Shown here piece after piece: positions 9,451 through 46,709 of a DNA stretch of 64,000 nt (position 1 is the first letter of the stretch; each line of letters starts with the position of its first letter). The position numbers were made by a program, and so were the translations under genes. The DNA is taken from positions 1 to 64,000 of the forward strand of contig CAUYUJ010000143.1 in the NCBI GenBank assembly GCA_963575745.1, given 5' to 3'. The DNA comes from Prorocentrum cordatum. Taxonomy: Eukaryota. The notes under the pieces are model-generated. The model had not been told where the DNA came from. It saw nothing but the letters and a program-made list of their open reading frames with translations, and did no database searches.

Positions 9451-9456
9451 CCTCAA

Positions 9457-9688
9457 TCGGGGATCTTCTGACCCGGGTCAATCCAGACCCGGGTCAGCAG
9501 GAAACCAAAAACTGCAATGCAGGAAAAAAAAAACTGCAACGCAGATCTCCGCAAACCCGGGTCAGCCAATGTGCGCGGCCGCCCCGCGGCCACGACCGGC
9601 TCGCTAACCCAGGTCAGCCAGAGGGGGCCTTCGCAGGATCCTGCAGGACCTGGCGCCTTGGCTGACCCCCGTTTGCATGGACCCCCGT
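9457..9688. mobile_element. MITE family B (TCGGGG...CCCCGW, 5-bp TSD), free copy
   Basis: Flanked by a perfect CTCAA direct repeat (9452-9456 and 9689-9693), with internal CCCGGGTCAGC subrepeats. Relatives at 39949-41257 and 42210-42379. Confidence 0.85.
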
Positions 9689-26335: not shown

Positions 26336-26435
26336 NNNNNNNNNNNNNNNNNNNNNNNNNNNNNNNNNNNNNNNNNNNNNNNNNNNNNNNNNNNNNNNNN
26401 NNNNNNNNNNNNNNNNNNNNNNNNNNNNNNNNNNN
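26336..26435. other. Assembly gap (100 N)
   Basis: Run of n. Confidence 1.
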
Positions 26436-27599: not shown

Positions 27600-30500
27600 A
27601 AAGGAAAACACTATAATTGAAAGAAGGCGCCGACAAGCGCATACTTGTTGAGAGGATGCAGAACATGCAATCGCTTGTTGTCGCTGATGCACAAGATGCA
27701 ATCAAATTATTGTTGCTGCTGGCGGCTGGAACCGGCGGCTGCAAGCCACGCGGCGTGCCACGGCCGGAAGACCGCCAGTTTGTAGTTGAGCACCCGGTAC
27801 GCCAAAGTGCAGAGTTGAGGGAGGTGGTGGTCGTGCCAACCACGCAGCATGAAAGCGCTCCGTTCGGCCTGAGAGAGGTCGGCCGGGAGTGGTAGAGGTA
27901 AGTGGAGCCCGTGCGCTCGACGAACCGGCTCCGTGGTCGGACATTCGTGCATCATGTGGTGGGTGTTGTTGTCCACCTGGCAGGTGGGGCAGGTGCGCGA
28001 GGAGCAATCCGGATGCAGATGCGAAAGGCGCACTGCGTTGGGCTCGGCTGCCATCACGCACCTCTGTGCCAAAGCGAACCGGTCGTGGTCGGCCCCGGCG
28101 TGCTCGTTCAGCCACTCGCAGAGGGTCGTGTGGCAAGGCGCTGGTACGCGGCCGGCGGCCTCCTTGCGGAGCGTCCGTCGGTGGTAATGTGTCCAAATCC
28201 ATGCCCGCCATGCCTGGCGCACGTGGTGGTCCAGGTGTTCTTAGCGAAGGAGGCGAACATCGAAAGTTTGATGGTCGAAATGGTACTTCCATGGACTGTC
28301 TGTGGGCTGCCAGAAACGGGAGACGACTTGCCGGATCCGGGCAGCCAGGCGATAGCTCCACGATCCGTCCGCACGACCTCCGTGCTGCTCCTGCTCGTGC
28401 AGGTGGGTCCAGGCTCGCTCCATGGTGCGCGCGGTGTCCTCGCTACACGCCGCCTCCACGAGACACCGGATGAGAACCGAGAACTGCACCGCGAAGGGCT
28501 CCACGAGCCATCCTTTGTCCGTGGTGAGCCAGAAAGCACCGCCGTGCCTCCATGCCCAATGTCTTTGTCTCCGGTGATGGTCTTTTCTATGTCGTAGCGC
28601 ATGCTGTGCAGGTCCGTGTCGTCGGCCATGACCCACGGAGCGTCCCAGCGCCACAAGGACATGGTTGCTCTCACCATGGCCATGCGCCTCCTGGCCCCGA
28701 GCCTGGCAGCTTTGGCGATCCTGGCGATGCGTCGGAGTCGTTCCTGGAGCTCCCCTGCCCTCCGTTCGGTGCGCGGGCCGCTGCGGGGGTTGCGGGATCC
28801 AGTAAGGTCGAAAACGATGCCTAGCACCTCGATGTCGGTGTCGATGTGGTTGTCGGCGCGACTGTTGGTGAGGGGGAGGGGGAGGGGGAGGGTGCTGTCG
28901 GCGCGGTCGGTGCCGTTGGTAAGGAAGACCGCCGCCATAGAGCCCTTCTTGGGATCTTCGCGTTGTCCCGTGAGGCGGTCCAGACGTGCCACCTCCTGGG
29001 TATGATGTCGGTCTGCCTCCAAAGAGTTGGTCAGGGCCGTCCTGTCGTCGACGTACGTGTCGAAGTACTGCAGGCCGTCGACTGTGCTCTTCAAGACTGC
29101 CTTGTGCGTGGCGCCGACCACAGCCGCTCCCAGCGCAGAGCTCGGGTCGCCCTGTGCAAGACCGCTGTCTGGCGGTGGGGCGCGCATGGCGTACTCTCCA
29201 CCACGGAAAATTGTGGGCTTGTCCACGTTCACGGAGAAGAGGAAATGAGCGTGCGTGTCCGGCATGCCGTGAAGAATCGCCGCTCGCTCCGCCAAAGACG
29301 GGTCGATGTGATTGAAGCAGCTGGCCAGGTCACTGGTGCGTGCAACTGTCGGGAGGTTGTCGGCTATGCGCGCGGTGACGGCGGCCTCGAACCGGAGCAG
29401 CTGCCCGACCGCGTCTGTAGATTGGACCCTGGTGGTCCAGAAACGGTAATGTTGAACAAGGCACCTCGACAGGGTGCGCGTGACGACGGGGATGACGGCG
29501 ATCGGGCGCAGGTCCTGCGAGGAGATCTTCGGAATGAAGGTCACGTTCTGCGCGCGGAGCGCGTCCGGCCAGATGCCCTTGCCCATGATCATGTCAGCGA
29601 GGTCCGCCAGGTGCTGCCACGCAAGCGTGGGCATGGAGAGCAGGAAATCGGCGTCGTAGTCCGTGGGCCCGGCTGCGGTGCCCCGGCAACCACGTGCTGC
29701 CGCCTTGAGGCCTGCAACGGTGAACCTGTCCCACTCGAGGTGCCGCTTTCCGCCGCACTCCACGCACGGTCGGACTGGGGCCACGTATCTGGCGGCCTCG
29801 GCGAAATACTGGTCGAGGCTGGAGGTGTCTGGGGGAGCGGCCATCTTGGCGTCCCAGGCGCGCTTGGCTGCGGTCATGCTGGCGGCGCATCCCCCGGAGA
29901 GCCGGCCCGAGGTTGGATCGGTTGCGGCCGCAGAGGGGGCGTTGGCTGCGTTGCGGACGCAGGCGTAGGCAGACGTCATGGAATGATGCTGCTGTTGGTG
30001 TCTCCACTGGTTCAAGCGGGACTGGATGACCTCCTCCTCGAAGGCCGGGATGGCCCGTCGAACGCTGCAGACGGCGTCGTCGTAGGTGGCCGGGTGGGGA
30101 ATACAGCCGTCGGAAACCAGGGAGCCGAGGCTCCTGGCGAGGGAGGCGCTGAGTGCCGCGTCCTCGCCCTGGATGTTGCCGTACTGCAGGAGGCGCCGGT
30201 AGACGCGTCGGAGTCGCCGTTCTGCGACTGGCTGTCGGTGCTCCTCGGTGTTGGCGTGGTCCGCGGCAGATTTCCACACCTTGGTCCATCGCCGCACGTC
30301 GTCGCCGTCGGACCTGGTGAGGCTGTGCTGGGGGACACCGGCGCTGAGCTCCAGGGTGTCCGACCAAGCCTGCCAATACGTGCTCGGGTCGTGCCCGGCC
30401 GCCGCCTCGGCGAGGCGCGTGGTGGTGGCCGCGCGCTCCCATGCTTCCAACCACAAGGCTTTGGAGGCGGGAGGTGTCAGCGGGTGGTGGCGTCGTAGGG

Positions 30501-32135
30501 AGGTGACGTCGGCGTCGGCGCTCACGGCGAACTCCGTGCAGTGTTGGACGTGGTCGGATGGACTCTTGGCTGAAAGCTCGTGCGAGACAGGTGGGCCGAG
30601 CTTGGCATCGAGTGTCGTCAAACTGCGGCTGCGTGAATAATCGATGCACCTGCCGCCGGTATGCGTGGGGGCATCCAGGTGGCCCACAACTCGGTGGTCG
30701 ATGGTGAAGTCCGCGAGGGAAGAATAGTCGTCGTCGTCTGGCGGGGCATTCCAATCCCCAATCATGACTGTGGGTAGGTCGGCGGCAGCAGCGCGCACGG
30801 CGAGAGCATCTGCGAGAGCGGCCCTGCCGGCCTTCGATGCCGGCTTGGTGCCGGAGTGGCCGTACACTCCGATGATCAAGACGTCCGTTGAGCCGGCGCG
30901 AAGCACTGCTGATGCTACCCGGCCTCGTAGGGAGGTGGGCCAGCACCATGGATCGCGACGCATGCCTGCTGGACCGTAGATGGCCACGCCCGCTGTGTTC
31001 GGAGTGGTCGTGTGAGAGGCCGTTGCGAAGGCGTGGCCGAACTTGCTGCGCGCGGATACGCGCTCCTTCGCACGCGTCTCGTCCCAGTGAGTCTCTGTGA
31101 GCACTACGACGTCGGCATCCATGCGGGTCGCGTGTCGTAGAGCACTCCTGAGGTCGTCTTGGTTCGGGGCCCCCTGCACGTTCGAGTGCCAGACCGTGAC
31201 CGCCACCTGGCGGGCCCCTCTGTGGGGGGACGGGCCGATGTCGGAAGCTGGAGTGGGAGTGGTGAGCTGCTGTGTGCGACTGTCGTCGCCTGTAGTGGTG
31301 GGTGCGTGTCGGTGGTTCCCGCAACGGCGTCGGTGCGCAGGCGGGCCTGGATTGGCCGCCTCGCCGACCCTGCAGGCGTGGGTCCACCAAACACGGGGCC
31401 TGCATGACCGTCGCGGGCACCTTCACCTCAGAGAGTGCGGCCTCCAGCGTGCGACCTTGGCCTTGAGGGCCTCGGCGGTCTGCACTTCCTGATGTCGAAG
31501 GCCATGCTTCCAGAGCAACAGGTGGAACTCCTGGAAGCTGATGGGTGCTGGTGCTTGTATGCACGGGTCACAGAAGGCGTCGGCACGCTTCATCTTCTGG
31601 TGGCAGTGCTTGCACTGGAACTTGTACCTGTTGACGCCGGACTCGGAGACGAAGTACGGCACGGTGGTGTCGAGGTCGTGGGCGGCGTTCTGGAGAGCCT
31701 CGGGGGCGCGAGCCATCCTCTGACGCAGGTTCCGCTCGTGCCCCGCCTGTATGGCCGCCTGGTTGTTCTTCTGCAGGAAGGCCGCCACGGTGCGACGCGC
31801 ATCCGGGCCGAGCTTGTTGTCGGAGGCGGCCTGCTTGTACGTGCAGCCGCGGCAGTCGCGGCGGTGGTGGTGGAGGGGCTTGTTGGCGGCCCTCGGAGCA
31901 ATGCCTGTTGGTGGGACCCATCCACATCGATCGCATATGTTGCCGTCGCCAGGGCGAGCGTACCGATATCGCACGTCTCGTATGGTGTCGTAGAAGGCTT
32001 TGGCCGCTGGCGCCACCTCTTCTCCGGGGTGGGAGTCGAGCCAAGCAAGAGCGGCAACTTTAGCTTGTTGTATGGTGCCGGCGTCGGTGGGAGACGGCAT
32101 GCGCGTAAGCAACTGCTCTGTCCAGTGGTAAATGG
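27600..32135 (-). mobile_element. APE-type non-LTR retrotransposon (ZnF - 2A-like - APE - RT - C-terminal ZnF), recently inactivated
   Basis: APE motifs HSNVQG, LTETH, GDWNA, IDY, SDH. RT motifs FIPK..LRPI, DLASCFNHI, GLAQGDPSS, YVDD. C-terminal CPTC..H..HEC. Lesions are TGA at 31423, a frameshift near 28563 and TAA at 28241. Confidence 0.93.
28108..31206 (-). CDS. APE endonuclease-reverse transcriptase ORF of the LINE (frame stays open to 31422; tail after ~28563 is out of frame)
   Basis: 1032-aa ORF carrying the motifs listed for the element. Confidence 0.9.
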   Translation of the reverse strand: MAVTVWHSNVQGAPNQDDLRSALRHATRMDADVVVLTETHWDETRAKERVSARSKFGHAFATASHTTTPNTAGVAIYGPAGMRRDPWCWPTSLRGRVASAVLRAGSTDVLIIGVYGHSGTKPASKAGRAALADALAVRAAAADLPTVMIGDWNAPPDDDDYSSLADFTIDHRVVGHLDAPTHTGGRCIDYSRSRSLTTLDAKLGPPVSHELSAKSPSDHVQHCTEFAVSADADVTSLRRHHPLTPPASKALWLEAWERAATTTRLAEAAAGHDPSTYWQAWSDTLELSAGVPQHSLTRSDGDDVRRWTKVWKSAADHANTEEHRQPVAERRLRRVYRRLLQYGNIQGEDAALSASLARSLGSLVSDGCIPHPATYDDAVCSVRRAIPAFEEEVIQSRLNQWRHQQQHHSMTSAYACVRNAANAPSAAATDPTSGRLSGGCAASMTAAKRAWDAKMAAPPDTSSLDQYFAEAARYVAPVRPCVECGGKRHLEWDRFTVAGLKAAARGCRGTAAGPTDYDADFLLSMPTLAWQHLADLADMIMGKGIWPDALRAQNVTFIPKISSQDLRPIAVIPVVTRTLSRCLVQHYRFWTTRVQSTDAVGQLLRFEAAVTARIADNLPTVARTSDLASCFNHIDPSLAERAAILHGMPDTHAHFLFSVNVDKPTIFRGGEYAMRAPPPDSGLAQGDPSSALGAAVVGATHKAVLKSTVDGLQYFDTYVDDRTALTNSLEADRHHTQEVARLDRLTGQREDPKKGSMAAVFLTNGTDRADSTLPLPLPLTNSRADNHIDTDIEVLGIVFDLTGSRNPRSGPRTERRAGELQERLRRIARIAKAARLGARRRMAMVRATMSLWRWDAPWVMADDTDLHSMRYDIEKTITGDKDIGHGGTAVLSGSPRTKDGSWSPSRCSSRFSSGVSWRRRVARTPRAPWSEPGPTCTSRSSTEVVRTDRGAIAWLPGSGKSSPVSGSPQTVHGSTISTIKLSMFASFAKNTWTTTCARHGGHGFGHITTDGRSARRPPAAYQRLATRPSASG

Positions 32136-32143
32136 GCCCCCCT

Positions 32144-32375
32144 GGAGGCCTCCCGGACGGGGTCGGAGTGGACGGGGTCGGAGGATCGCGCCGCATCCGC
32201 GATGCATCGGCGATACATCGGCAATGCACCGGCGATGCATCGTCGACGTGGACGATGCATAGGCGACGTCGACGTGAAGCAAATCGGGCCCCACATCGAG
32301 CCGCATCGCCGATGCATCGGCGATGCGGCGCGGTCCTCCGACCCCATCCACTCCGACCCCATCTAAAAGGCCCGG
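32144..32375. mobile_element. MITE family D copy at the 5' edge of the LINE
   Basis: TIR GGGGTCGGAGTGGACGGGGTCGGAGGATCGCGCCGCAT / ATGCGGCGCGGTCCTCCGACCCCATCCACTCCGACCCC. Confidence 0.85.
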
Positions 32376-33609
32376 ACTGGAGCCCATCATGCCCCATCCT
32401 CCGAGGCAGCTCCAGCCGTGACCGCGAGAAGCCTCCAGGAGAGGCCCGCCAGGGGAGGCACAGCACGCCGGGGGAGGACGGCCGCCGTCCCGAGGGGCCC
32501 TCCTCCCGGCCTCGATCTGTCCAGGCCCGCTGACCTTGCCGTGGCCCTGGTTTCGTCGTTGGGGTGGGGGGGGGGAGGGAGGACGGAACTGAGGGGGGGA
32601 GGGGGAGAAGGGAGGAAAGAACGGGAGAAGGGGAGGGGAAGCGGAGAGACCGGGGGCGGGGGTCGGGGGAGGATGGGGAAGGGGGGGGGGAGGAGAAGAG
32701 TGGATGAGGAGGGGGGTGGGAGATTGAGGAGGGGGAGGGGAGGGGGGAGGGGGGGGAAGGGGGGAGGGGGAGGGGGCAAGCTAGGTGCGCTGGCGTCATC
32801 TCTGACGCCCTACCCCTCCCCCCCTCCCTTACTATGGCGTAGATATCCTCTTTATTCTCAAAATCGGATGTCGTAGCATGACATAGCATTACATGGTATA
32901 GTATGGGGTTGAAGATCAACGCGTAGCATGACATAGCATGGCGTGACGACTCCCCAAAGTGGGGGGGAGGAGGAGGGGCTTCTGCGGCATAAAATCAACG
33001 AATCGACACCGAATGTGTAATCACTTCCGATGGTTTCTTCGGGGGCTCGGCGCTGCAGCGGCAGCAGCGCGATTCGGAACGAGCGGAAGCGCGGAGCGGA
33101 AGCGCGGAAATGAGGCCGATGCTTCAGCGGGAGCACGACTCGGGCGGTAGGCCGAAAATGAAGCCAGCGCTTCAGCGAGAGCCGCATTTTGAACAGAAAC
33201 CCCAGCGAAAACCGTCTCCCGGGAAGCCTGTGTGTAAAAAATCCGTGCGCGGAGGAAGTCCGAGCACTTCCCAGACGCCACCCAGGGGAGAGAAAGAGAG
33301 AGAGAGAGAGAGGCGAGTCGTACTCATGCTGTGCAGCTGTGGAGGGGGAGGGAGGGGGGGAGAGAGAGGGTGGACGGGCTGGAGGGGGGAGAGAGGGGGG
33401 GAGGGGAGGGAGGGAGGGGAGAGGGGGAGGGAGGGGGAGAGGGAGGGGAGAGGGGAGGGAGGGGGGGAGAGGGGGGGGGAGGGAGGGGGAGAGGGGAGGG
33501 AGGGAGGGGAGAGGGGAGGGGGGAGGGAGGGGGGTGAGAGGGGGTGGACGGGCTGGAGGGCGGGGGGCCCCCTGCCGCCGCCCCGCGGGTCCCCGCTCTT
33601 GAAGGTCGC

Positions 33610-33726
33610 CTCCACGCGAGCGCAGACGGCCTCGGGCTCCTCGTGCTCCTCCTCCGCCGTGCCGGCCGCCATGGCCCGGGCCACCAGCGAGACCTCGAGG
33701 CGCCTGCTCGTGTCCCCGTCGGCGGC
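33610..33726 (-). CDS. Candidate exon of the host gene (AADGDTSRRLEVSLV...AVCARVE)
   Basis: High-GC3 codons, GAG|GC at both ends, phase 0. Confidence 0.45.
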
Positions 33727-34876
33727 CTCCCCGTGCACGCGCCGAGGGGCAGAAAAGCGTCGGCCCCGCGGCGCGGCCAGGCGCCCGCCCGCGGCCCCGG
33801 CCGCTTGTGCTCCCCCCCCCCCCCGCTGCTGCCAGGCTGCTTGCCCCGCGGCCCGCCAGGCCGTCCACCCCGCTCGCAGGGGGAGGGGGAGGAGGAGGAG
33901 GAGGAGGAGGAGGAGGAGGAGGAGGAGGAGGAGGAGGAGGATGCGGAGGAGGAGGAGGAGGAGGAGGAGCGGCGAGGGAGAAGAGGGAGGAGGAGGAGGA
34001 GAGGAGGAGGAGTTGCGGAGGAGGAGGAGGAGGAGGAGGCGGAGGAGGAGGAGGAGGCGGAGGAGGAGGAGGAGGAGGAGGCGGAGAGGAGGAGAGGAGG
34101 AGAGGAGGAGAGGAGAAGGGCCCCTGAGCAGTGAGCAGTCGGATTCGAGGCACAGGCGCAAAGCTTTTGGATGCCCGCGCGGAGTTCTGCGGATCGGCAC
34201 CGCCCCCCTGCATCGCCCAACTGGTGCGTCGTGGCCCGCGACGCGCGACGCGCGATCGCCCTCGCGGCCTCGCGTGGCCCCTCCTCTCCGGCCCAGGCCG
34301 CGGTGCGCCAAACCGGCTAGCTGCGCACCCCCTCGGGGCGGCCTGGGCCCCCCTCGGCGAAGCTGGACGACTAGCAGTCAAGGTACCCCTAGCCCTGTGG
34401 GAAGGGACCTGAGTTGGGAGGGCCACAAACACCAGGGATAGGGGGTCTTTTTTTTCTGAAGAGGTATCGAGCCAAACCGCCCAGATGATCTGTGGTCCCT
34501 CATGCAAAGACTGGGGCCTTCGTGATGCTACGCCGTCATCGTGGAATTAGGGTTGGGGCTTCTTGACTGGAGGCGCCGCAAGGAATGGTCCAGCGCCGAG
34601 GAGGAGGAGGAGGAGGAGGAGGAGGAGGAGGAGCCATGGGAGATCCGCGCGGCCTCCCACAGTCTACGCCCACAGTCGTGCTGCCAAAAGGAATGCTGGC
34701 CGAGCCACGGAGAAGCTTGCCCAGGCCACGGTGGGCCTCTCGGTCACGGACGGGTGTGCGTGTCTCGGGGTCCCCAAGGGCGTGCGGCGGCCCAGAGCCA
34801 AGGACGGGCCCGACAAGCAGGGCCCCTCCCCGCCCCCGAAGTGGTCCTCGCTCCAGCGCCGTAGCCGCGTGCTGAC

Positions 34877-35089
34877 TTCTGCCCCTCGGATGGAGAAGCC
34901 CCCCTCCGTCGACTGCCAGAGGTTGTACTGCTCGAGGATGGCCGCGGGCAGCAGCCCGTACATCAGCCGTGCCGGCACGAACTCCTGCTGGGCGCCCTCG
35001 AACTGCGGCGGTGGCAGACCGCGCGGCGACCTCGGAATCCCCCACGACCTCACTGCCCGGTCACTCACCCGCACGGGTCGGAGTCGGAC
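34877..35089 (-). CDS. Exon of the host gene (...QEFVPARLMYGLLPAAILEQYNLWQSTEGG...)
   Basis: Globular-looking peptide with high GC3. CAG|G acceptor and GAA|GTCAGC donor are plausible but the boundaries are uncertain. Confidence 0.7.
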
Positions 35090-36982
35090 CTGGGACAGCA
35101 GAGAAGCCGTCCTTCAAGCACATGAGGACCCTCCGCCGGCCCGAAAACTGGAGAAGGCTCGAGGCGGCCCTCCCCCAGGCTGCACAGGAACGTCCAGCGC
35201 ACGCGACGAGCGCTGAGCAGGGCACCATCCCCGCACCCACCTCGATCCGAGCCCTCGGTCCGACTGCAGGAGCCTCTGGAGGCCCGAGAGGCCCCCGCGG
35301 AGGGCGGCCCGAGCCGCTCGCTCCGTGGGGCCACGCCGAGGCCGCACCGCCTCACCACCACGGCCCTCCTCCAAGCGCTCGGCTCCCGGGCCGTGCCTCG
35401 AGTCCCCGGCGGCCGTTCGTCGGGAGCGGCCAAGAGGGGGGTGGCCAAGAGGGGGGTGTCCAAGAGGGGGGGGTGCAGACCATGACCGGCGGCATGTGCG
35501 CGGCCCAGCGGGGGGGCCTGGGACGTAATGGAATAAGAAGAGGCGCCATGAGATCTGGGGAATTATCATGGCCCGCGCCATGATATCCACCCCCCCTAGT
35601 CATCACCCCCCTCTTTTCCGCCCCCGAATTCGGGACGATCCCGGCCCAACCCGGAACGCACTGGTCGAGGCGCAGCTGCTGGAGCGCAACCCGAGGCACG
35701 CAGTCTCCCACGAGCCTTCGAGCACGCCCGAAACACCTGTGACCCCACCGACTACGGTGTTTGGAGAAAGAAATACTGCATGATCATAAACGTTCGGAGC
35801 TCCGCGCGAATTTCTTGGATCTGCGCTGGACCCCCCTCCCTGGCGCGCGGAGCGCGCCAGGGGCGGCACCGGAGGCGCCGATCCAAGAAGTCCGCGCGGC
35901 ACTCCGAAAATTCATGCTGTTGTTCTTCGAAGGGTATTACCGCGCCGCTTGGGGGCCACTGGTATCCTGCTGCGCCGGGTTCCCCACGCTGCCCCGGAAG
36001 ATGGACACCGACGGCGGGTGCGGCGGCGGCTGTGGCTCCACGTCGGGCTGCCCCGCCTGGTGCCTACCCCACGGCGGGAACGGAGGGCGCTCCTCGTGGA
36101 GACAGAAGGAGGGGTGAGGAGGGGAAGGAGGAGGAGGAGGAGGAGGAGGAGGAGGAGGAGGAGGAGGAGGGAGGAGGAGGAGGAGGGAGGCGGGAGGAGG
36201 GAGGAGGGAGGAGGGAGGAGGGAGGAGGGAGGAGGGAGGAGGAGGGAGGAGGAGGGAGGAGGAGGAGGAGGAGGAGACGAGGAGGAGGAGGAGGAGAAGG
36301 AGGAGGAGGAGGAGGAGGAGGAGGAGGAGGAGAAGGAGGAGGAGGAGGGAGGAGGGAGGAGGGAGGAAGAGGGAGGAGGAGGAGGAGGAGGAGGAGGAGG
36401 AGGAGGAGGCTTGGAGGAGCACCTGGACTTCTCGTCCTCGCCCTCTGCCCCTTCGCCTTCGCCTCCCTTCAGGGCGTCGTTGGGGGGGGCGGGGGGGATA
36501 AAGCTCCGGGGATGTGGTTCGAGGCTTGAGGCCTTCAAGCGTTTTCGTTGGTGCTCGGCAGTCTCCCGGACCTGGACTGCTCTCCAGCAGCTGCGCCTGG
36601 CCGAAAACGTTCGAAGGGTGTACCTGGACCGTCTCGCACGGACGCCTAGGGCCCGAGGTACGGCCCGACAACCAACAGGCCCAAGATGAGGGGCAGAAGG
36701 AGCTGGGGGAGGGAAAGGACGAGGAAGGAACGAGTGCATTCCTTCGGCGGCGAGCGAGGGGGGGAAGTGAGAGGCAGAAGGCCTTCTCAGAAGGCGGCGG
36801 GACCTCTCGGAAGCCCTCGCGCCTTCTGAGAAGCTTTCTCTGTCTTCGGGGACGGCAAAGAAAACTGCTCAGAAGGCCGGGCAACTTCCGAGCCTTCTGA
36901 GAAGGCCCGCCCCTTGTCACTTCCCCCCTGGGCTCGCCGCCGAAAAGATGCGGAAGATGACAAGAAATGAACGATTGCATTC

Positions 36983-37507
36983 CTGGCTGCAGTCGGTGTC
37001 TGGCTGCATCGCGTGCAGCGTCAACTGCGCGTTCGTTGTGTACTCTAGGGTTCGATGGAACCGCCTGCCGTGGCTGGTCATCGTGAAAACCTGGACCATG
37101 CCATATGCCCTGTACAGCACCACTTCCTTCCACTTCCTCCTGGATTGCTGCAGATGCGCACCTACCAACACCGCTACATGGGCATCCTTGTCCAGGGTCT
37201 CCTGGTCCGGGTCGGCAAAGAAAAATGTGACGTCCTGTGGAGGGTTGCCGATATTCACAAAGAAACTATTGCGCACTGGCTCGAACAAATCCGCAACCCA
37301 CGTTTCAGACGGTTCAAGCTCTTCAGGGTCGTACACGTCACCTGCGTTCAGCATGGGCAACCGCTGGTCAGGAACCCATGCGTGCAGCAGATAACCCTCA
37401 GCTGCAACGTAGCGGTCCTGTCGAAACTGGTACGAGCCTCGCACCTCGCACTGAATAGCACCGCGGCCATCAGTGTTGATCATCTGACACACGTCGCGGT
37501 CTCGCGA
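36983..37507 (-). CDS. Host gene coding segment (SRDRDVCQMINTDG...HGRRFHRTLEYTTNAQLTLHAMQPDTDCSQ)
   Basis: 175 open codons with a probable CAG|GA donor. The start is 37507 (precise excision) or 37483 (canonical AG). Confidence 0.85.
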
Positions 37508-37510
37508 AAT

Positions 37511-38492
37511 CCCACCAGCCCTCTGGGCGTAGGTGGTCTAGAGCAGATCCTCTTCCACCCCTCCCTCTTCCCCCTTGGGGAGGGGTTTACCCCTCCCCCT
37601 ACCCCCTCCCCTGGACCTGGACGGGGGGGGCCGCGGGTAGTTAGAGCGTCCCAGATGGCCCAAGACGGCTCCAAGAGCGCCTCAGAGAACCCAAGATGAG
37701 CTCCAAGATGGCTCAAGATAGCGCAAGATCGCTCGAGATGGCTCCTAAGATGGTTCCAAGAAGCCCAAAGACGGCCCCAAGATAACTCCAAGTGGCCAAA
37801 CAGCTCCCCAAGGAGGCCCCGAAGAGGCCAAAATCGTCCCAAAACCTAAGGAAAATCAATGATTTTTGCTTTCTCGCCTTTTCGCTTCCGATGGCCATCC
37901 GAGGCCTGGAGATGGTTCCAAGATGGCCCAAGAGGGCCCCAAGAGAGCCCCAAAAGAGCCCCAAGACGGCCCCAAGAGCGCCCAAGAGCACTCCAAGAGC
38001 GTTCCAAGAGGGGTCCAAGAGGCGATTTTAGGGGCTTCCGAGGGGGGACGCTAATTAAACCCCCCCTCTTGTTTGATCGATCTCCTCCAAGATGGCCCCA
38101 AGAAGCGCCCAGGAAGCCCCAAGAGGTCCCAAGATGGCCCCAAAATGGCCCCAAGAGGCCCCCAAGAGGCCCCCCGGAGGCCCCCAAGAGACCCCCAAGA
38201 GGCCCCAAGAGCCCCCCCAGATGCACCCAAGATGCTCCAAGAGGCCTCGGCGAGAATGCCTAATCATTGATTCTACACAGGTTTTAGCCACATGGAGGCC
38301 TCTTGGGGGGGGGCACGGATTAAGATGACTCCAAGAGCGTCTGGGAGAGCCCAAAATGACCTCCAAGATGGCTCAAGATATCCCAAGATGTCTCATAATG
38401 GCTTCCTCTGTGTGCTGCCCACTTCTCTGATCGAGGCAATTCCTCTGGGCATCGTTTCTGGATGGGCTGGTGGGGATTCGCGAAGCGACAAC
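37511..38492 (+). mobile_element. ~1-kb CCAAGA-rich element inserted in coding sequence
   Basis: Ends CCCACCAGCCC and (subterminal) GGGCTGGTGGG, AAT on both flanks. Homologous to 40028-41134. Confidence 0.85.
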
Positions 38493-39164
38493 AATGAAAT
38501 CCTCCAATGCGCGGAAGAAATTGCCTTTCACTTTCAGAGTGAACGTCTGGCAGTTTACCTCGACGATGATCCGCCGCTCCAACTGTTTCAGGTCCACTAT
38601 CGGCACGTGGCCATTGCTTGCTGTCTGCTTGGCCCATTCCTCGCCCTGGAGCTCCGCCACGTCGGCTTCACTCTGGTACGACTCTCTCATACCGAGAGCC
38701 ACGAACCTGCCCTGGTCCTCCGGGTCCTGCGCCTTGCACCAAATCAACTCCGTGAAATGCAGGAGCGGCTTACGGGTCGCTAGCTTGTATACAGTGTCCA
38801 GAACGCCACCAAACTCCTGATAAGACCTGTCTTTGTGCTCCATCCACTCGATGAGTGGGCGCCGCAATGAGCCCATGATTTCGTATACCTCTGGGTCCGG
38901 GATTGCCGTCGGTTTTTGGTTCCACGTGTGCCGGACTACCAGGAACATGAAAGAGGACAACACATCGATGGCGACTTGTGTCGAGACCTTTTTGGCGTGC
39001 CGCAAAAGAAGCAAGCGGTGAGCATGGAAATTGCATGCCAGTCTGGCCTGCCTGTTGAGGGCCGGCTCGACAGTGGGAGGAGGGCTCAGGCCGCTGGTGG
39101 CCTTCCAGCCCGTGGCCGGCGGCGTGGGCGTCAGGTCGGCCGACATGTACAGTTGCGCGTTGTC
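38493..39164 (-). CDS. Host gene exon (DNAQLYMSAD...FFRALEDFI)
   Basis: 224 open codons, AAG|G acceptor, ATT|GT donor. Confidence 0.88.
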
Positions 39165-39669
<505 letters not shown>

Positions 39670-39945
39670 CTTGTAGCCCTTCTTGTGAAAGCTCCATTCC
39701 CCCTCCGCGGCCAGCTGCAGAGTGCACGTGTCGCTGCTCGCGCCGCGCTTCACATACATCCCCTGCGCCTCCTTCACGTACGTCCCGTTCAGCTGCGACT
39801 CGCCAGCTCCCGACACGAAGACATGTCCGGCCTCCTCTGCCACGCCCGCTTCTTGCTCTGCAATCCGCTCCGCGACCACGTGAATCCAGTCCTCCAGCAT
39901 CGTGAAAGCCTTGCGGCGCAAGTGGGTCCGTAGCAAGTTCACAGC
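39670..39945 (-). CDS. Host gene exon (AVNLLRTHL...HKKGYK)
   Basis: 92 codons, phase 0, CAG|G acceptor, AAG|GA donor. Confidence 0.88.
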
Positions 39946-39948
39946 CTG

Positions 39949-41257
39949 TCGGGGACGCAATAAGCTGGGTCCGCCCAAACCTGGGTCGGCCAGGACCCTT
40001 CCGCGAAGCCCAGCTGGCCGCCTAGTACTCCCACCAGTCCTCTGGGCGTCGGTGGTTTAGGGAGTTTCCTCTTCCACCCCTCCTTCTCCCTTCGGGGAGG
40101 GGTTTACCCCTCCCCCTACCCCCTCCCCATGGACCTGGACAGGGGGTTTCGCGAGTCGTCGGAGCGTCCAAAAAGGCCTCGGCGAGGAAGCCAAACTCAT
40201 TGAGTTTACTAGGGTTTTGGCCCCATTCTGGCCTCCTGGGGGGGGGAGGCTCTAATTAGTACCCCCTCTCCCCTCCTGTGATCGATCTCACCCAAGATGG
40301 CCCAAAGATGGCCCCCAAGACTCCCAAGGGTGCCCCAAGAGGGCCCCAAGAGGTGGCCAGGAAGCCCCAAGAGGCCCCCAGGAGGCCCCCAGGATGCCCC
40401 CAAGAGGCTCCCAAGAGACCTCCAAGAGACCTCCAAGAGACCCCAAGAGGCCCCCCAGAGGCACCCAAGACGCTCCAAGAGACGTCGGCGACAATGCCGA
40501 AATCGCTGATTTGACTAAGGTTTTGGCCACATTTGGGCCTCCTGGGGGGGGCACTGCTTCAGATGACTCCAAGAGCGCCTGGGAGAGCCAAAGATGATCT
40601 CCAAGATGGCTCAAGATACCCCAAGATGCCTCAAGATGGCGCCAACGATGCTCCAAGAGGCCCCAAGACCGCTCCAAGACGGCTCCAAGGGGCCACAGAG
40701 CTCCCCCAGGAGGCCCCGAAGAGGCCAAAGTCCTCCCAAAACCGTCCAGAGGAAAAACCATGTTTTTGGCTTTCTCGCCGAGGCCTCAAGATGGCTCCAA
40801 GATGGCCCAAGAGGGCTCCAAGAGCGCTCCCAAGGCTCCCAAGAGCGCTTCAACAGGGCCCCAAGAGGCGTCCAGGAGGCCCCAGGAGGCCCCAACAGGC
40901 GCCCAAGAGGCCTCCAAGAGGCTCCCCAGAGACCCCCAAGGGGCCCCAAGAAGCTCTCCGAGGCACCCAAGACGCTCTAAGAGGCGTCTGGGACCGCCAA
41001 GAGGCCCCCAAGAAGCTCCAAGAAGCCTCCACTGGGGGACCCTTCCTGTGTGCTGCCCGCTTCCCTGATCGAGGCAATTCCTCTGGGCATCGTTTCTGGA
41101 TGGGCTGGTGGGGATTCGCGAAGCGTTAGCAATTCCCAAACCCGCGTCAGCGAAGGGCGGAAAACGGAAATCGGCCCCCCGTTGTGCCCAAACCCGGGTC
41201 AGCCAGAGGAGATTGGCTGACCAATATGAGCACTGACCCCCGCTGCGTGAGCCCCGA
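39949..41257. mobile_element. MITE family B acting as an Introner (fills GC-AG intron 39946-41259), with a nested CCAAGA element
   Basis: TCGGGG...CCCCGA flanked by a perfect GCCTG TSD (39944-39948 and 41258-41262). Confidence 0.85.
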
Positions 41258-41259
41258 GC

Positions 41260-41981
41260 CTGGACCATGTCCCTGACAGCCTCCGGCGTCAGAAGCTGCC
41301 TGTCGAGCACGTGCAGGTCCTTCTTCTTCACGGACGGGTGCCTGTCGTGCGCCACCTCCACCAGGAAGTGGGCGTAGCTCTCGACCCGGGAGGCCAGCCG
41401 CACCGAGAAGAGCACCAGGTCGACGGTGGAGCCCTCGGGGTCGCCCGTGTTCAGGCTCAGGGCCTGGTCGAGCAGCTCGCACACCATCTTCGCCAGGGCC
41501 AGCGGCGCGAAGCACACCTCGTTGACGAGCAGGCCGAACTGCGTGCCCATGAGTTCGGGCTGGCTGCACGGCACGTCGACTGGGTCGGGCGCCCACCTCG
41601 GGGTGTAGGCGGAGGGCTCCAAGAGCGAGGCCTGCACGCACTCCTGCAGCTCCATGTGCCTGAGCGAGTGGATGCGGTTCTGCTTCACGAAGAAGTTCAT
41701 GACCAGAGGGATCCTCAGGTACGGCACCGTGAGGTAAGATGCCAGCGACTCCACATCCGCCTGTCCGAGCAGTTGGTCGAAGTCAGGGAGACTGGGGACA
41801 TGCAATATGTCGTCTTCCGTCCACACGCGCGCTCCCGCAAGCACCGACGGCTGAGACTTGCTTGGGTACCTCCTCGTAGGGTCGCAAGGTCGGATGGGGA
41901 GAATCTGTTTGCCAAAGGCAGCCACGGTGTAACACTGATTCTGCGGGTCGAATTCCCACTGGAGACGTCCATCCTGATCCG
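41260..41981 (-). CDS. Host gene exon (DGRLQWEF...TEDDILHVPSLPDF...SYLTVPYLRIPLVMNFF...RDMVQ)
   Basis: About 240 open codons with a CAG|GC donor. The acceptor is 41981 (phase 1) or 41973 (phase 0). Confidence 0.9.
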
Positions 41982-42209
41982 CTCGTGCCATCAGCACGTT
42001 GGGGCGTTTCAGACTGCCTGCTAGCTGTCTGGTACGACTGCTGTAACTGTCCAAGGGCGCCGTCTCTTAGAATGCACTACCTGCACGGAGCTCCCAGCAC
42101 GGCCCTGGGGTGCCAACGCACATGAAAGCAATGTGCGTTGTTGTGCTCTTGCTTCGAACGCCATCCTGCCCAAGATTGCTTGAATACTGCCTCAGACCCC
42201 CCTGGCCCA

Positions 42210-42379
42210 TCGGGGATCTACTAATCCGGGCCAATCCAGACAAGGGTCAATCAGGCCTTGCAAGGTCATGCAAGATTCCGCAAAATCCTCTACGCAAGCC
42301 CGGGTCAGTGCAACCCTGGCCCTGCAGGGTCCCGCAAGATCCGGCGCTCTGACCGACCCCCGTTTGCATGGGCCCCCGT
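42210..42379. mobile_element. MITE family B, older intronic copy
   Basis: TCGGGGATC...CCCCGT; flanks GCCCA/CTCCA match at 3 of 5 positions. Confidence 0.7.
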
Positions 42380-42813
42380 CTCCAGAACCCCGACGTCATG
42401 ATTTGTTCATACCCTGACCTTCCAGAGACCTATTTTTTAGCACCACTGGAGACCTAAAAACCTAAAAAACTGAGCGAAACAGCCTAAAGCCAAGACGTAG
42501 AACAGCCTTGGGATAGGTGTTTAAGTCGCGTGCTATTTTTTAGCCCTCTTGGAAGGTCAGGGTTGTTCATAGCGTCGACCCCTAGAGGTCCCGACCCACT
42601 CCCCGGGACGGGTTCCTCGGCCTGTATAATTTGTTTGGCGCTCCCGAGGCCCGGCGAGGGCCCCCACGGAGGCCGAACATAGCGAACACCTCCCGCCGTG
42701 GCTTCTTCACGACCCGAGGGGGCCTGGGTTGAAGTCGGGCCTGTCCCCCTAGAGGGGGATTTTCGACGAAACCCGCCGTGGCTTCTTCACGACCCGAGGG
42801 GGCCTGGGTTGAA

Positions 42814-42997
42814 GTCGGGCCTGTCCCCCTAGAGGGGGATTTTCGACGAAAAATAAAAAATCCACCAGAATAGTCAAACAATAATCCAAAAATAGTCTGG
42901 AGACCATTTTCTGCGCATTTTTTGACATTTTTGGAATATGTTTGGGGTATTTTTCATTTTTCGTCGACAATCCCCCTGTAGGGGGACAGGCCCGGCC
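42814..42997. mobile_element. MITE family C, copy 2
   Basis: TIRs as at 11632-11885. The left junction is duplicated in tandem (79 bp). Confidence 0.8.
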
Positions 42998-43015
42998 CAG
43001 CTTTCGTCGGCAGCT

Positions 43016-43180
43016 GAAGGGGCCCCAGGACACACAAATGAGCACACACAAATAAAACGATCCCCAATAGTTTCCCCATATTTTGGGTTTTTTTTCGCCT
43101 TCCCCCCCACTTCCCATATTTTCCCATATTTTCTGGGGAATCGCCGATTCATTGTGTCTGTGTGTTTTTTTCCCTTCCTG
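43016..43180 (+). repeat. ~160-bp dispersed repeat family E (also 51170-51329, 55091-55251, 56716-56876)
   Basis: GGCCC[CT][AG]GGACACACA.AT.A..ACACACAAATAAAA...CCCCCCACTTCCCATATTTT...ATTGTGTCTGTGTG...CCTCCTG. Confidence 0.9.
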
Positions 43181-44160
43181 TGGGCAGCGCCGGCGACCGC
43201 GGGCGCGCCCGTGCGGAACCCGGCGGGCCGCGCCGGGCACGGCGCGCACGGGGGCGGGCGGCAGAGCAGAGGACGGCCGCGGAGGCGGCAGGAGGGGAGG
43301 GGCCCGGCCGCCAACACTTTTTTAGTCTGCGGGTCGGGAGCGGGCCCCTTCCGGTCAAGGGCTAAACGGGGCGCGGGTAGCTCTAATCGGGGAGACAGGG
43401 CACAGGCAGGCGGGGCCTCAGGCGGCCGGAGGGCTCAGAAAACAGGCGGCGCCGAAGATCTTGCACAGGACAAGGTGCGCCATGGCCCGGCCGCCAACGC
43501 ACGCCCCCGATGCGGCCCAGAGACTACCCCGGGCACGCCCGACTAGACGTCGGTCAGAAGAGTTCGTGGCCCCACAGGGAGTCCAGCGATTAGACGTCGG
43601 TCAGAAGAGTTCGTGGCCCCACAGGGAGCCCAGCGAAGGTTCCAGGTCCTACTGGCAGGGTCCACGTGGCGGCGCCGCCCCATGTGGGCGCAGCCCTCAC
43701 TCGGTTCGTGGCTGCATATGGTTGGGTCCTTCGTCAGGCTAATTTTCGGGGCGACTCTGGCCCCAACTTGCGCCCCAAAGAGCGGCCCACACCGGCCCCG
43801 ATGTCGACCCAGTGTCGACGATGTTCCGATCTGGTTCGGCCCCCGGGCGGGGACGCTCTCGCTTGGGCCATCTAGAAGCTTCTATCCTGGCTCCTTTCGG
43901 AACCCTTTTCGGGACCTCCTGAAGACCTTGTTGGCGCGTTTTGGGCCGACTTCGGGCAGTCTTGGGCTTATGTTGGGCAGTGGTGTGGCTATTTCTCGCC
44001 TCCTGGAAATCCATCGTCCATATCACTGATCTGGTGGTAATGATGACGGACACCAGTCAGCTACACGGTATACCTGAGCCCACTCGGCGATGGGATGGAG
44101 AAGAAGTGGAGCGCAGGAATAAGTACAATACGCAGACACACACACACACACACACCGACG

Positions 44161-44196
<36 letters not shown>

Positions 44197-44211
44197 CACA
44201 CAAACACTGAA

Positions 44212-44242
<31 letters not shown>

Positions 44243-44621
44243 CGCACGAACATACACACACACACACACACACACTCTCACACACACCCATACACATACG
44301 CACGCACGCACTCTGGAATGGGCAGGCGGCGAATGCGAAGCGTCTCGAACCAGAAGGGCCTGATAACGGCAGCGAAATGACAGTCAGCCAGGCACTTCTT
44401 CCCGAAAGAAACGAAGTCTACGCCAAAAGAAATCTCAAACAAATCACCCAACGCCGCAACAACCATGCAAGGTTGCGGCCATGATCCGTTACACCATTGT
44501 GGCGCTGCCTTCCAGCCTGCCAAAAGACAGATTTACCGAGCCTTTCGGGGGGGGCTCGGTGGAACCATCCCGAATGTGCTTCGGTGCTGCGCTGGACAGT
44601 GGCAGTGTCGGCCGCAGGCAC

Positions 44622-46494
44622 CTGGATACTGATAGTTCTTCAGCTTCGGGAAGTTCCTATTCTCGGTAACCATCATGTACTTCCACAGAAGCGTTATATC
44701 TCGCCACGCGCCATATTCAGGGCAATATTCGACAGTGTAGGAGTCAAGCATCGCCGACCCTTGGGTGGTCCTGTACAGGTGCTTCTGTATCCTCTTGGCG
44801 AACTCTTCACCAACCTGATCTGGAGCCTGCATCGACCATTGGCCCTCCTCCCAGCTCCACATTGTGTTCTTGATATGCAATTCGTCAAAATATGCGATGA
44901 TGTTGGCACGGGCGACGCACAAGTCTGGGGATGGGATTTCTATCGTTTCTGTTTGCTTCGCGAAGCAGTGGTGGGATATGCCAAAATGATCTGGCTTCTC
45001 CCCCAATGCGGGCGCAACAAGCGACCGCTCAAGATCATCTGGAGGCCGCCGGAGCACGGCGTCTATCATGGCACACATCGCCCCTAAAGTAATGATGCGC
45101 GTTGTCTCAAACTCGCGCCCGCCAGCTATAGAAAATGCGGATGTACAATATATCGTCGCTATTCGCTGCAATGTCAGGCAAAGGTCAACTTGCAACTTCA
45201 GAGTCATGACTCCAGTACCCCACACGTCCAGGAACTGACGCTTGGCTAACGACTCTGGCCCCACCGGAATTGGAAGAACTCTGGCAAACACATCGGTGAC
45301 GAGGGCACATTTCTGGTAGTGGAACCCCGTATCTCTCATGTTGTCCAGGCGGGCGCATAGCACCTCGCATGTTTTCACGGTGTGCCAGATCGAGCGCACT
45401 GCTTGATCGTGAACGGCGCTCACGCGCTCGGGGCCATCGCCAGACACGTGCGTCACACAGCCCAGCTCCCTGACCTCCCTGGGGATGCTCAGGAAGTTCA
45501 CTGCGGGCTGCTGCCGCTCATCCGTCTCCGCGCCCTCCAGGTTGGATATGTCTTGGCGGACGAAGTACTCGAAGAAGGGGAACATGTCCCAGTCGTCCGC
45601 CGAGCGGCCGTCGCCGCAGCCTTCGCCGTGGTCGACGGCTGGGATGGCGCCGCGCGCGGGCTCGGCACTGGCCGCCGGAGGTGCTCGCGGCACGGAGGTG
45701 TGCGGCGTGTCGCCGTTCGCGACGAGGTCCAAGAGGGGCGGGGCCGTCCGCTCGAGGCCACCGCCCCTTCTCAGCTGGGCGTCGCTCATGAGCTCGCGAA
45801 GAGCCCGCATCCTCTCCAGCGTCCGCTGGGGGTACTCCGCTCTCTTGCGGCCCGTTGTCAAGGCTCCATCCTCATCCTGGCAGCCCTTTGCAGTGGCAAG
45901 GGCCAGCTGCTGCAGAATCATCGAGATGAGCTGGGACTCCTGTGGGGAGAGCCGGACACAGTGGCGGAGGTCGTGCTCGATGAAGGAGACGAAGACCTCG
46001 CGCAGTCTCAGGGAAAAGAGCTTCGCCCGAGGGCGCGACCACCCGTGCTGCACGCGCAGGAGGTAGTGGAAAGTCTCGAGGTAGAGCCTGTGGAAACAGG
46101 CGTCAAAAGGCGTGCGGAAGTCAGTGTCCACCACCTTCTGCGACTTCGCCAGCGCGCACTCCAGCTGCTCCTGGGCCAGCCAAGGCAGGAGGAACTCGTA
46201 GATCTTGGACGGGTCCTGCGTCTTTTTTGTCATTGGGACCGTGAACAAGAAAAGCCACCACGCTTCGTCGTGAATGCGCTCGGCGGGGATGTCATCCAGC
46301 ACCATAACTGTTTTGCACTTCTGCTTTGGGTGCACCCTCGACGTCTTCACGTGAAACTCGCGGCCAATGCCAGTGTTGCAGAGAGCCACCCTCCAGCAGT
46401 CGCTGGCCTTCAGCTCGAGGATGAGGAACACAAACTCTGGCTCGTCCTGCCTTGGATTATTCCATGGAACAGGCACCACCATGGTGTCCCCCTC
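44622..46494 (-). CDS. Largest host gene exon (~624 codons; EGDTMVVPVPW...NFPKLKNYQYP); large protein of unknown function
   Basis: Core of the 679-aa ORF with globular composition, AAG|G acceptor and CAG|GTG donor. Confidence 0.92.
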
Positions 46495-46498
46495 CTTG

Positions 46499-46709
46499 GA
46501 GGCCGCCGAAATGGGGCCAGAGTTCATGGGGCCGGAGGATCGCACCTGATCGCCGATGCTTCGCGGATGCACCAGCGACGTCGGAATGGGGAGAAAAAAT
46601 CAGGATCCAGATGACGCCGCACCGCTGTTGCCGCACCGCCGATGCACCAGCGAGGCAGTGCGACCCTCTCTTCGGCCCCCGGAGGTCCCGGGATGCCTCG
46701 GGAGCCCTC
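46499..46709. mobile_element. MITE family D copy abutting the splice acceptor of the large exon
   Basis: GAGGCCGCCGA...TCGGGAGCCCTC with TTG on both flanks. Confidence 0.65.

What the first reader, a model, noticed from the sequence alone, without database searches (positions are those of the whole stretch)
39944..41262. Introner: a TIR element whose 5-bp TSD (CAGGC) supplies both splice sites of a GC-AG intron
Seen: the intron between ...RDMVQ and AVNLLR... is exactly TCGGGG...CCCCGA (39949-41257) plus one copy of GCCTG, giving CAG|GC...CAG|GC in phase 0. A free copy of the same family at 9457-9688 has its own perfect 5-bp TSD (CTCAA), and a third lies at 42210-42379, so family mobility and TSD length are shown inside this window. 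A ~1.1-kb CCAAGA element later nested inside and expanded the intron. Known: Introner elements are described in dinoflagellates and algae. Inference: this family becomes an intron only when its target contains AGG[CTA].
Basis: partly seen in the sequence, partly recalled or inferred. Interest (0 to 1): 0.85.

Follow-up and report, generated by a model that had tools for sequence, protein, structure and literature searches.

The report
Transposon-made intron in a dinoflagellate gene
A small cut-and-paste transposon landed in a coding exon of the dinoflagellate Prorocentrum cordatum and is spliced out as an intron using its duplicated target site, a clean example of a mechanism already described in other dinoflagellates.

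Summary
The window is Prorocentrum cordatum nuclear DNA. On the minus strand, a 1,314-nt phase-0 GC..AG intron (39946-41259) splits ...RDMVQ|AVNLLR.... It equals one element (39949-41257, TCGGGG...CCCCGA) plus one copy of a perfect 5-bp target-site duplication (CAGGC on the coding strand).

RNA contigs from two studies, one a polyA RNA-seq library, join the exons by skipping exactly 1,314 nt. Only the GC..AG cut fits the 6-nt ambiguity.

The element is about 212 nt of a TIR family, interrupted by a 1,097-bp minisatellite element (40029-41125). Two more family copies lie in the window. One (9457-9688) has its own perfect 5-bp duplication, CTCAA. The other (42210-42379) sits inside the next upstream intron.

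In 28 of 42 distant homologue loci the reading frame runs uninterrupted across the site.

The mechanism is already published. Roy et al. describe Polarella introner classes that take both splice sites from an AGGH or NAGGH duplication. Dougan et al. report pattern-defined introner elements in 2.4% of P. cordatum introns.

Verdict: a real, well-supported new member of a known kind, of modest interest. The "only at AGG[CTA]" rule could not be tested because no genome was held.

The parts
41260..41973 (-). Upstream coding exon, ending ...RDMVQ (CAG at 41262-41260). The 5' limit is approximate and comes from homology only.
   Evidence: Translation. tblastn of P0004 at 100% identity and of homologues. 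Covered by RNA contigs.
41258..41262 (-). Target-site duplication copy 1 (CAGGC on the coding strand). Its last two bases, GC (41259-41258), are the 5' splice dinucleotide.
39946..41259 (-). Spliceosomal intron: 1,314 nt, GC..AG, phase 0.
   Evidence: Unique splice solution reproducing P0004. Joint skipping 1,314 nt in X1 and X5 contigs.
41126..41257 (+). Right arm (132 nt) of the outer TIR element, ending CCCCGA. Carries two AACCCGGGTCAGCC-type subterminal motifs.
   Evidence: (nhmmer 1.1e-26).
40029..41125 (+). Nested 1,097-bp element. It has conserved termini (TCCCACCAG... / ...TTCGCGAAGCG) and an interior 11-bp CCAAGAGGCCC minisatellite. It inserted after the outer element.
   Evidence: Second copy at 37510-38487 with 85-88% (left) and 97.5% (right) identical termini. 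TRF. Contigs of other loci break at 40027/40029 and 41125/41126.
39949..40028 (+). Left arm (80 nt) of the outer TIR element, starting TCGGGGA.
   Evidence: (nhmmer 1.1e-13).
39944..39948 (-). Target-site duplication copy 2 (CAGGC). Its CAG (39948-39946) supplies the 3' splice AG. GC (39945-39944) starts the next exon.
39670..39945 (-). Downstream coding exon, AVNLLR...GYK.
   Evidence: RNA contigs.
9457..9688 (+). Family copy A (232 nt) with a perfect 5-bp duplication CTCAA (9452-9456 and 9689-9693). It does not form a splice site. Its genomic context is undetermined.
   Evidence: No Pfam match in overlapping ORFs.
42210..42379 (+). Family copy B (170 nt) with a degenerate duplication (3 of 5). 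It lies inside the next upstream intron of the same gene (about 41974-44580).
   Evidence: (A against B, z = 20).
37510..38487 (+). Second copy of the CCAAGA-minisatellite element. It fills most of the GT-AG intron 37484-38531.

Best explanation
A non-autonomous cut-and-paste DNA transposon inserted into a coding exon at the target CAGGC (coding strand). The transposon is about 200 bp, has TCGGGG termini, imperfect 45-nt terminal inverted repeats with GGGTCAGCC-type subterminal repeats, and makes a 5-bp target-site duplication (TSD).

Repair of the staggered cut duplicated the target, giving CAG|GC-[element]-CAG|GC. The element carries no splice signal of its own. The dinoflagellate spliceosome accepts GC (and GA) 5' sites and needs little beyond AG|GH. 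It uses the GC of the upstream TSD copy as the 5' splice site and the AG of the downstream copy as the 3' splice site.

Splicing removes the element plus exactly one TSD copy, so the mRNA is restored letter for letter. The insertion is therefore neutral to the protein and persists as a phase-0 intron. Later a 1.1-kb minisatellite-bearing repeat inserted into the element and lengthened the intron six-fold.

Shown:
- the intron limits and their coincidence with element plus TSD;
- splicing in RNA;
- family copies with independent TSDs;
- the nesting.

Inferred:
- the order of events (an insertion creating the intron, rather than an insertion into an older intron);
- the transposase type, which is unknown.
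For: Organism and gene: P0004 of Prorocentrum cordatum is 100% identical and reads straight across the junction.

Geometry: intron 39946-41259 equals element 39949-41257 plus 5 nt.

Splicing: a joint skipping 1,314 nt appears in a 1,926-nt contig of X1 and a 361-nt contig of X5 (polyA RNA-seq, another study, 2 SNPs). Only the GC..AG cut is possible among the 7 registers. The X1 contig also skips the next intron.

Family:
- Global alignment gives z = 20 for A against B and z = 8.5 for A against O (the outer element) over 500 shuffles.
- All 7 window matches to AACCCGGGTCAGCC lie in A or O; 1.07 are expected by chance.
- The three copies begin with the same TCGGGGA and end ...CCCCG[T/A] directly at their flanking repeats.
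- The TSD+terminus pattern occurs 2 times against 0.095 expected.
- The TIR z-scores are 3.3, 3.0 and 4.6.

No indel in the protein: homologue alignments run through the junction without a frame break, with at most short alignment gaps nearby. 28 of 42 metagenome loci have one uninterrupted HSP across residues 138-158.

[quoted passage not shown] Florenciella introners co-opt both sites.
Against: - Dinoflagellate introns generally show AG|G at both borders, so 3-4 of the 5 repeated letters could come from the splice consensus alone. Other introns of this gene have border repeats of 15, 0, 4, 8 and 1 nt.
- The perfect TIR is only 6 bp.
- The intron copy is strongly diverged from copies A and B. 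blastn with word size 7 found no match, and B against O gave z = 3.2 only.
- Only three copies were seen, and only one of them forms an intron, so 'family that repeatedly makes introns' is not shown here.
- The 28 loci without an intron are distant (25-40% identity), mostly intron-poor organisms, and several are duplicates of one another. No close dinoflagellate orthologue or intron-less allele could be examined.
- No autonomous partner was found. No transposase domain appeared in 57 of the 73 ORFs of at least 230 aa in the window.
Confidence: 0.85

Rival explanations
1. An older intron already existed at this position. The small TIR element (and later the CCAAGA element) merely inserted into it. 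The CAGGC repeat at the borders reflects the dinoflagellate AG|GH splice consensus rather than a target-site duplication.
For: The border consensus AG|G is common: introns 4 and 5 of the same gene have AG|GA and CAGCAG|GA repeats. Copy B of the same family and the second CCAAGA copy do sit inside larger introns without forming their splice sites.
Against: Nothing of an older intron is left. The intron consists of the element plus 5 nt only, and the element termini abut the repeat on both sides exactly as in copy A, whose repeat (CTCAA) has nothing to do with splicing. The repeat also matches at its two non-consensus positions (C at -3, C at +2).
Confidence: 0.08
2. RNA-level intron transposition: a spliced intron reverse-spliced into new sites, and copies A and B are descendants of an intron rather than of a DNA transposon.
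For: Proposed in the literature for fungal introner-like elements, as cited in PMC9860276 (passages read).
Against: Copies A and B lack the GC...CAG intron ends. Homology starts and stops at TCGGGG/CCCCG[AT], and the copies carry flanking 5-bp repeats that differ by locus. The TIR structure points to DNA transposition.
Confidence: 0.02
3. Chance resemblance: the three 'copies' are unrelated GC-rich sequences, and the 6-bp inverted ends are coincidence.
For: The window is 60% G+C with many low-complexity repeats. blastn missed the relation.
Against: Alignment z = 8.5. The motif is exclusive to the elements, 7 of 7 hits against 1.07 expected. The structural pattern occurs 2 times against 0.095 expected. 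The termini are in identical register.
Confidence: 0.03

Closest known systems
Polarella glacialis introner-like elements, class 12 (5-nt TSD; NAGGH variant) and class 14 (AGGH) - Roy et al., bioRxiv 10.1101/2020.10.14.339549 (text read); published as Curr Biol 2023 33:189 (citation seen only)
   Same: Dinoflagellate host. DNA-transposon signature. The element carries no splice site, and both the 5' G[H] and the 3' AG are recruited from a duplicated AGGH target. For class 12 the duplication is 5 nt long and the GC 5' site predominates. Phase-0 outcome. The mRNA is restored exactly.
   Different: Different species and order (Prorocentrales versus Suessiales). Sequence relation to the Polarella classes could not be tested because their sequences are not held here. 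In class 12 the GC bias is attributed to an initial C of the element in the NNAGG register, whereas here the C comes from the duplication itself. Only one intron-forming copy was seen here, against hundreds there.
Pattern-defined 'introner elements' of Prorocentrum cordatum - Dougan et al. 2023, Genome Biol 24:265, PMC10666404 (passages and supplement passages read)
   Same: Same genome. Introns with inverted repeats plus 3-5-nt direct repeats near both ends, reported in 2.4% of introns.
   Different: That work used a pattern search only (inverted repeat of 8-20 nt). In the passages read it describes no families, no termini, no non-intronic copies and no splice-site origin. The perfect inverted repeat here is 6 bp, so this intron may not have been counted.
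Symbiodinium / Aureococcus / Micromonas / Florenciella introners - Gozashti et al. 2022 PNAS, PMC9860276 (passages read)
   Same: Non-autonomous TIR/TSD elements that generate introns by co-opting target sequence. Florenciella co-opts both sites from the insertion site.
   Different: Symbiodinium elements have a 4-bp TSD and carry their own 3' site. Aureococcus elements carry both sites and add codons. Here nothing is carried and nothing is added.

Membership tests
Introner (intron-generating transposable element), TIR/TSD DNA-transposon type | Intron boundaries coincide with one element plus (part of) its target-site duplication. | tested here: met
   Intron 39946-41259 equals element 39949-41257 plus 5 nt.
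Introner (intron-generating transposable element), TIR/TSD DNA-transposon type | The insertion is spliced out in vivo and the reading frame is restored. | tested here: met
   Joint skipping 1,314 nt in contigs of X1 and X5 (polyA RNA-seq), two studies. P0004 reads through.
Introner (intron-generating transposable element), TIR/TSD DNA-transposon type | Locus-specific target-site duplications at different copies. | tested here: met
   CAGGC/CAGGC (intron copy) and CTCAA/CTCAA (copy A). Copy B matches at 3 of 5. The pattern occurs 2 times against 0.095 expected.
Introner (intron-generating transposable element), TIR/TSD DNA-transposon type | Terminal inverted repeats. | tested here: met
   6 bp perfect in the intron copy. 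Imperfect for about 45 nt in all three copies, z = 3.3, 3.0 and 4.6 against 1,000 shuffles.
Introner (intron-generating transposable element), TIR/TSD DNA-transposon type | A family whose copies form introns in many genes (the operational definition used by Gozashti et al.). | not testable with these tools
   No genome is held for this window. Only 3 copies are in the window, 1 of them intron-forming.
Introner (intron-generating transposable element), TIR/TSD DNA-transposon type | Intron absent at the homologous site in relatives (recent gain). | tested here: inconclusive
   28 of 42 distant homologue loci are uninterrupted across the site. The other 14 end or lose the alignment before it. No close relatives were available.
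Polarella class 12 / class 14 introner-like elements | TSD of form NAGGH (5 nt) or AGGH, with both splice sites taken from it. | tested here: met
   The TSD CAGGC fits N-AG-G-H. GC and AG both lie in the TSD. Definition.
Polarella class 12 / class 14 introner-like elements | Sequence homology of the element to those classes. | not testable with these tools
Pattern-defined introner element of Dougan et al. / Farhat et al. | Inverted repeat of 8-20 nt and direct repeat of 3-5 nt within 30 bases of each intron end. | tested here: inconclusive
   The direct repeat of 5 nt is met. The perfect inverted repeat is 6 nt and reaches 8 or more only with mismatches or gaps. Definition.

The most novel reading that the evidence does not exclude
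The TCGGGG family may be an ordinary, unspecialised MITE of P. cordatum that carries no splice signal. It would become an intron purely by the accident of landing in an NAGGH site.

Neighbouring introns of the same gene seem to stem from other kinds of insertion. Intron 2 is a microsatellite/poly(A)-type insert flanked by a 15-nt duplication. Another intron is filled by the CCAAGA element.

If a genome-wide census confirmed this, P. cordatum would show that in dinoflagellates almost any insertion with a duplicated AG|GH target is converted into an intron. Nesting of further repeats would then explain the very long introns (mean 4.7 kb) of this 4.75-Gb genome.
Probability: 0.3. Interest if true: 0.5.

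Novelty: new member of a known kind. Interest (0 to 1): 0.3.

Why it matters
This is a tidy, RNA-validated single-locus example of intron birth by transposon insertion in a bloom-forming dinoflagellate. The intron-forming copy, a copy with a non-splice duplication and a copy inside another intron all lie within 64 kb.

It gives the P. cordatum introner elements, so far known only as a pattern count, a concrete family with defined termini and duplication length. It also shows one route (nesting of a minisatellite element) by which such introns grow.

It does not open a new question. The splice-sites-from-the-duplication mechanism, the AGGH target rule and the phase-0 consequence are already published for Polarella.

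Tried and rejected
- Whole-genome search of the window's own assembly: no genome is held. A family census and the AGG[CTA] enrichment test were therefore impossible.
- blastn with word size 7 of the intron arms against the window found no link to copies A or B. The relation was recovered only by global alignment, motif search and profile search.
- An nhmmer profile of the three copies found no further copy in the window.
- A third structural hit (32172-34839, repeat CCACT) lacks the family motifs and spans an exon. It was rejected as chance.
- Search for an autonomous partner found no transposase domain. 52 of the 73 ORFs of at least 230 aa were scanned and five more. Sixteen were not scanned (13 overlapping ORFs in the 33-46.6 kb gene region and 3 low-complexity ORFs at 10.5-11.4 kb).
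- Exact-pattern scans of viral contigs with three element motifs found 0 matches each.
- Look-ups of earlier findings by place, by sequence and by words returned nothing.
- No consistent target-site duplication could be defined for the nested CCAAGA element. Its flanks differ between copies, and the TTCGCGAAGCG end is part of the element.
- Runs X9 and X6 gave no contig across the junction. This says nothing either way.
- Pfam gave no family for the host protein.

Full report
**Identity of the window.** The window is about 60% G+C, is rich in microsatellites and has no prokaryotic features. The ORF upstream of the finding is 100% identical to an "unnamed protein product, partial [Prorocentrum cordatum]" (P0004). 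No whole genome is held for it. The host gene lies on the minus strand and encodes a large conserved eukaryotic protein without a Pfam family. P0004 maps to exons 41700-41260, 39945-39670, 39164-38532, 37483-36983 and further downstream. Homologues show that the gene continues upstream into the 44533-46599 ORF.

**The observation.** On the + strand the sequence reads GCCTG (39944-39948), TCGGGG (from 39949) ... CCCCGA (to 41257), GCCTG (41258-41262). On the coding strand this is ...GTC CAG|GC-TCGGGG...CCCCGA-CAG|GCT GTG....

**Transcripts.** Eleven public runs held part of the stretch. The best held about a third of its words, which is roughly the exon share. I laid four runs from four studies on 39661-41900. 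Two of them carry a contig that joins 39942 to 41257, skipping 1,314 nt with 6 letters that fit either side. These are X1 (1,926-nt contig) and X5 (polyA RNA-seq library, 361-nt contig with two SNPs, so another strain or allele). Writing out the seven possible registers of the CAGGCT repeat, only CAG|GC...CAG|GC gives a G[ACT]..AG intron. The X1 contig also skips the next intron (loose end at 39662 continuing into the exon at 39157), so it is processed mRNA. X9 and X6 had no contig across the site. Contigs cannot give splicing efficiency.

**Is the insert a transposon family?**
- *The outer element.* Once the nested repeat is removed, the outer element is 80 + 132 = 212 nt (39949-40028 and 41126-41257). 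The copies at 9457-9688 (A) and 42210-42379 (B) are 232 and 170 nt.
- *Similarity.* blastn with word size 7 linked A and B but not the intron copy O. Global alignment gave z = 20 (A-B), 8.5 (A-O) and 3.2 (B-O) against 500 shuffles.
- *Motif.* The subterminal motif AACCCGGGTCAGCC (up to 2 mismatches) occurs 7 times in the window, 4 in A and 3 in O and nowhere else, against 1.07 expected.
- *Termini.* All three copies start TCGGGGA and end ...CCCCG[T/A], immediately next to their flanking repeats. These repeats are CTCAA/CTCAA (A), GCCTG/GCCTG (O) and GCCCA/CTCCA (B, 3 of 5).
- *Structural pattern.* The pattern 5-mer + TCGGGG...CCCCG[AT] + same 5-mer occurs twice on the + strand (A and O), against 0.095 in shuffles. 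One further minus-strand hit (32172-34839) lacks the family motifs and spans an exon, so I count it as chance.
- *Inverted repeats.* Left and right ends are imperfect inverted repeats over about 45 nt (z = 3.3, 3.0 and 4.6). The perfect part in O is only 6 bp.
- *Census in the window.* A profile of the three copies found no fourth copy.
- *Conclusion.* This is a diverged MITE-like family with 5-bp target-site duplications. Copy B lies inside the next upstream intron (about 41974-44580) without forming its splice sites. The context of copy A is undetermined, with no Pfam match in overlapping ORFs.

**The nested element.** Positions 40029-41125 (1,097 bp) carry conserved ends and an interior 11-bp CCAAGAGGCCC minisatellite. 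A second copy at 37510-38487 shares the left ~120-140 nt at 85-88% and the right 80 nt at 97.5%. It fills most of the GT-AG intron 37484-38531. Contigs from other loci diverge from the window exactly at 40027/40029 and 41125/41126. The nesting claim is confirmed. It must post-date the outer insertion. No consistent target duplication could be defined for it.

**Was the intron gained?** A metagenome scan with an alignment of 12 homologues returned 42 loci. In 28 of them a single uninterrupted tblastn segment spans residues 138-158 of P0004 (the junction is at 147|148), with no frame break. The other 14 stop before the site. These homologues are distant (25-40% identity), several are duplicates of each other, and most seem intron-poor. 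This excludes only an ancient, widely shared intron. No close relative could be examined.

**Mechanism.** The most economical reading is insertion of the MITE into an exon at CAGGC, duplication of that 5-mer, and use of the GC of the upstream copy and the AG of the downstream copy as splice sites. Splicing then removes the element plus one copy and restores the mRNA. Because nothing is supplied by the element, orientation should not matter. This last point is inference.

Against over-reading the repeat: dinoflagellate introns commonly have AG|G at both borders. Border repeats of the six mapped introns of this gene are 6, 15, 0, 4, 8 and 1 nt. The case therefore rests on the coincidence of the element termini with the repeat and on copy A's unrelated duplication, not on CAGGC alone.

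**Comparison with what is known.**
- Roy et al. (bioRxiv 10.1101/2020.10.14.339549, parts 1-2 of the text read) describe 15 introner-like classes in Polarella glacialis. In class 14 both splice sites are recruited from a 4-nt AGGH duplication. Class 12 has a 5-nt duplication and, in its NAGGH register, takes both sites from it, with GC 5' sites predominant. They also derive the phase-0 bias from this.
- Gozashti et al. 2022 (PMC9860276, passages) show Florenciella introners co-opting both sites.
- Dougan et al. 2023 (PMC10666404, passages and supplement passages) report pattern-defined introner elements in 2.4% of P. cordatum introns. The passages read give no family description.
- A full-text search for 'introner' with 'Prorocentrum' found 7 papers (6 listed). 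None of the listed titles and abstract openings is a family-level study of P. cordatum introners. Prorocentrum is not mentioned in the main texts of PMC12130899 or PMC9860276.
- The finding is therefore a new, well-documented member of a known kind, and its mechanism is not new.

**Verdict.** Novelty is low to moderate: interest 0.3, confidence in the mechanism 0.85.

Noticed in passing
window 39157-39675 (intron 39165-39669, minus strand): The next intron downstream (505 nt, GA..AG) consists only of microsatellites. On the + strand these are (CAA)n, (CAG)n, (CA)n and then A9. It is flanked by a perfect 15-nt direct repeat, GCGTTGTCCTTGTAG, and is spliced in the X1 RNA contig. An A-rich tail plus a long duplication looks like a 5'-truncated retroposon tail or a repair-mediated insertion that became an intron. 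This would be a different route of intron gain in the same gene.
   Followed up: partly
window 28111-31422 (minus strand): A 1,104-aa ORF has an Exo_endo_phos domain (E = 2.5e-12) followed by a weak RVT_1 match (E = 0.0034, below the Pfam cut-off). This is an APE-type non-LTR retrotransposon ORF2. It sits in the large last intron (about 26797-33594) of the annotated gene.
   Followed up: partly
window 37484-38531 (minus strand): This GT-AG intron has no border repeat. 978 of its 1,048 nt are the second copy of the CCAAGA-minisatellite element, leaving only 44 and 26 nt of other sequence. It may be a short older intron expanded by the insertion.
   Followed up: partly
window 34985-35966 and 36093-36982 (minus strand): Two further GA..AG introns have border repeats, CAGCAG|GA (8 nt) and AG|GA (4 nt). 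I noticed no inverted ends in a visual look at the border sequences, but no TIR test was run.
   Followed up: no
window 41700-46599 (minus strand): The deposited protein P0004 is partial. Homologues align to upstream exons (41973-41260 and the 44533-46599 ORF), so the real gene starts well upstream of the annotated first residue. The protein family is conserved across many uncultured eukaryotes (motif LLSYLTVPYLRIPLV) but has no Pfam model.
   Followed up: partly
window 26335-26434: A run of 100 N (an assembly gap) lies just downstream of the last mapped exon of P0004.
   Followed up: no
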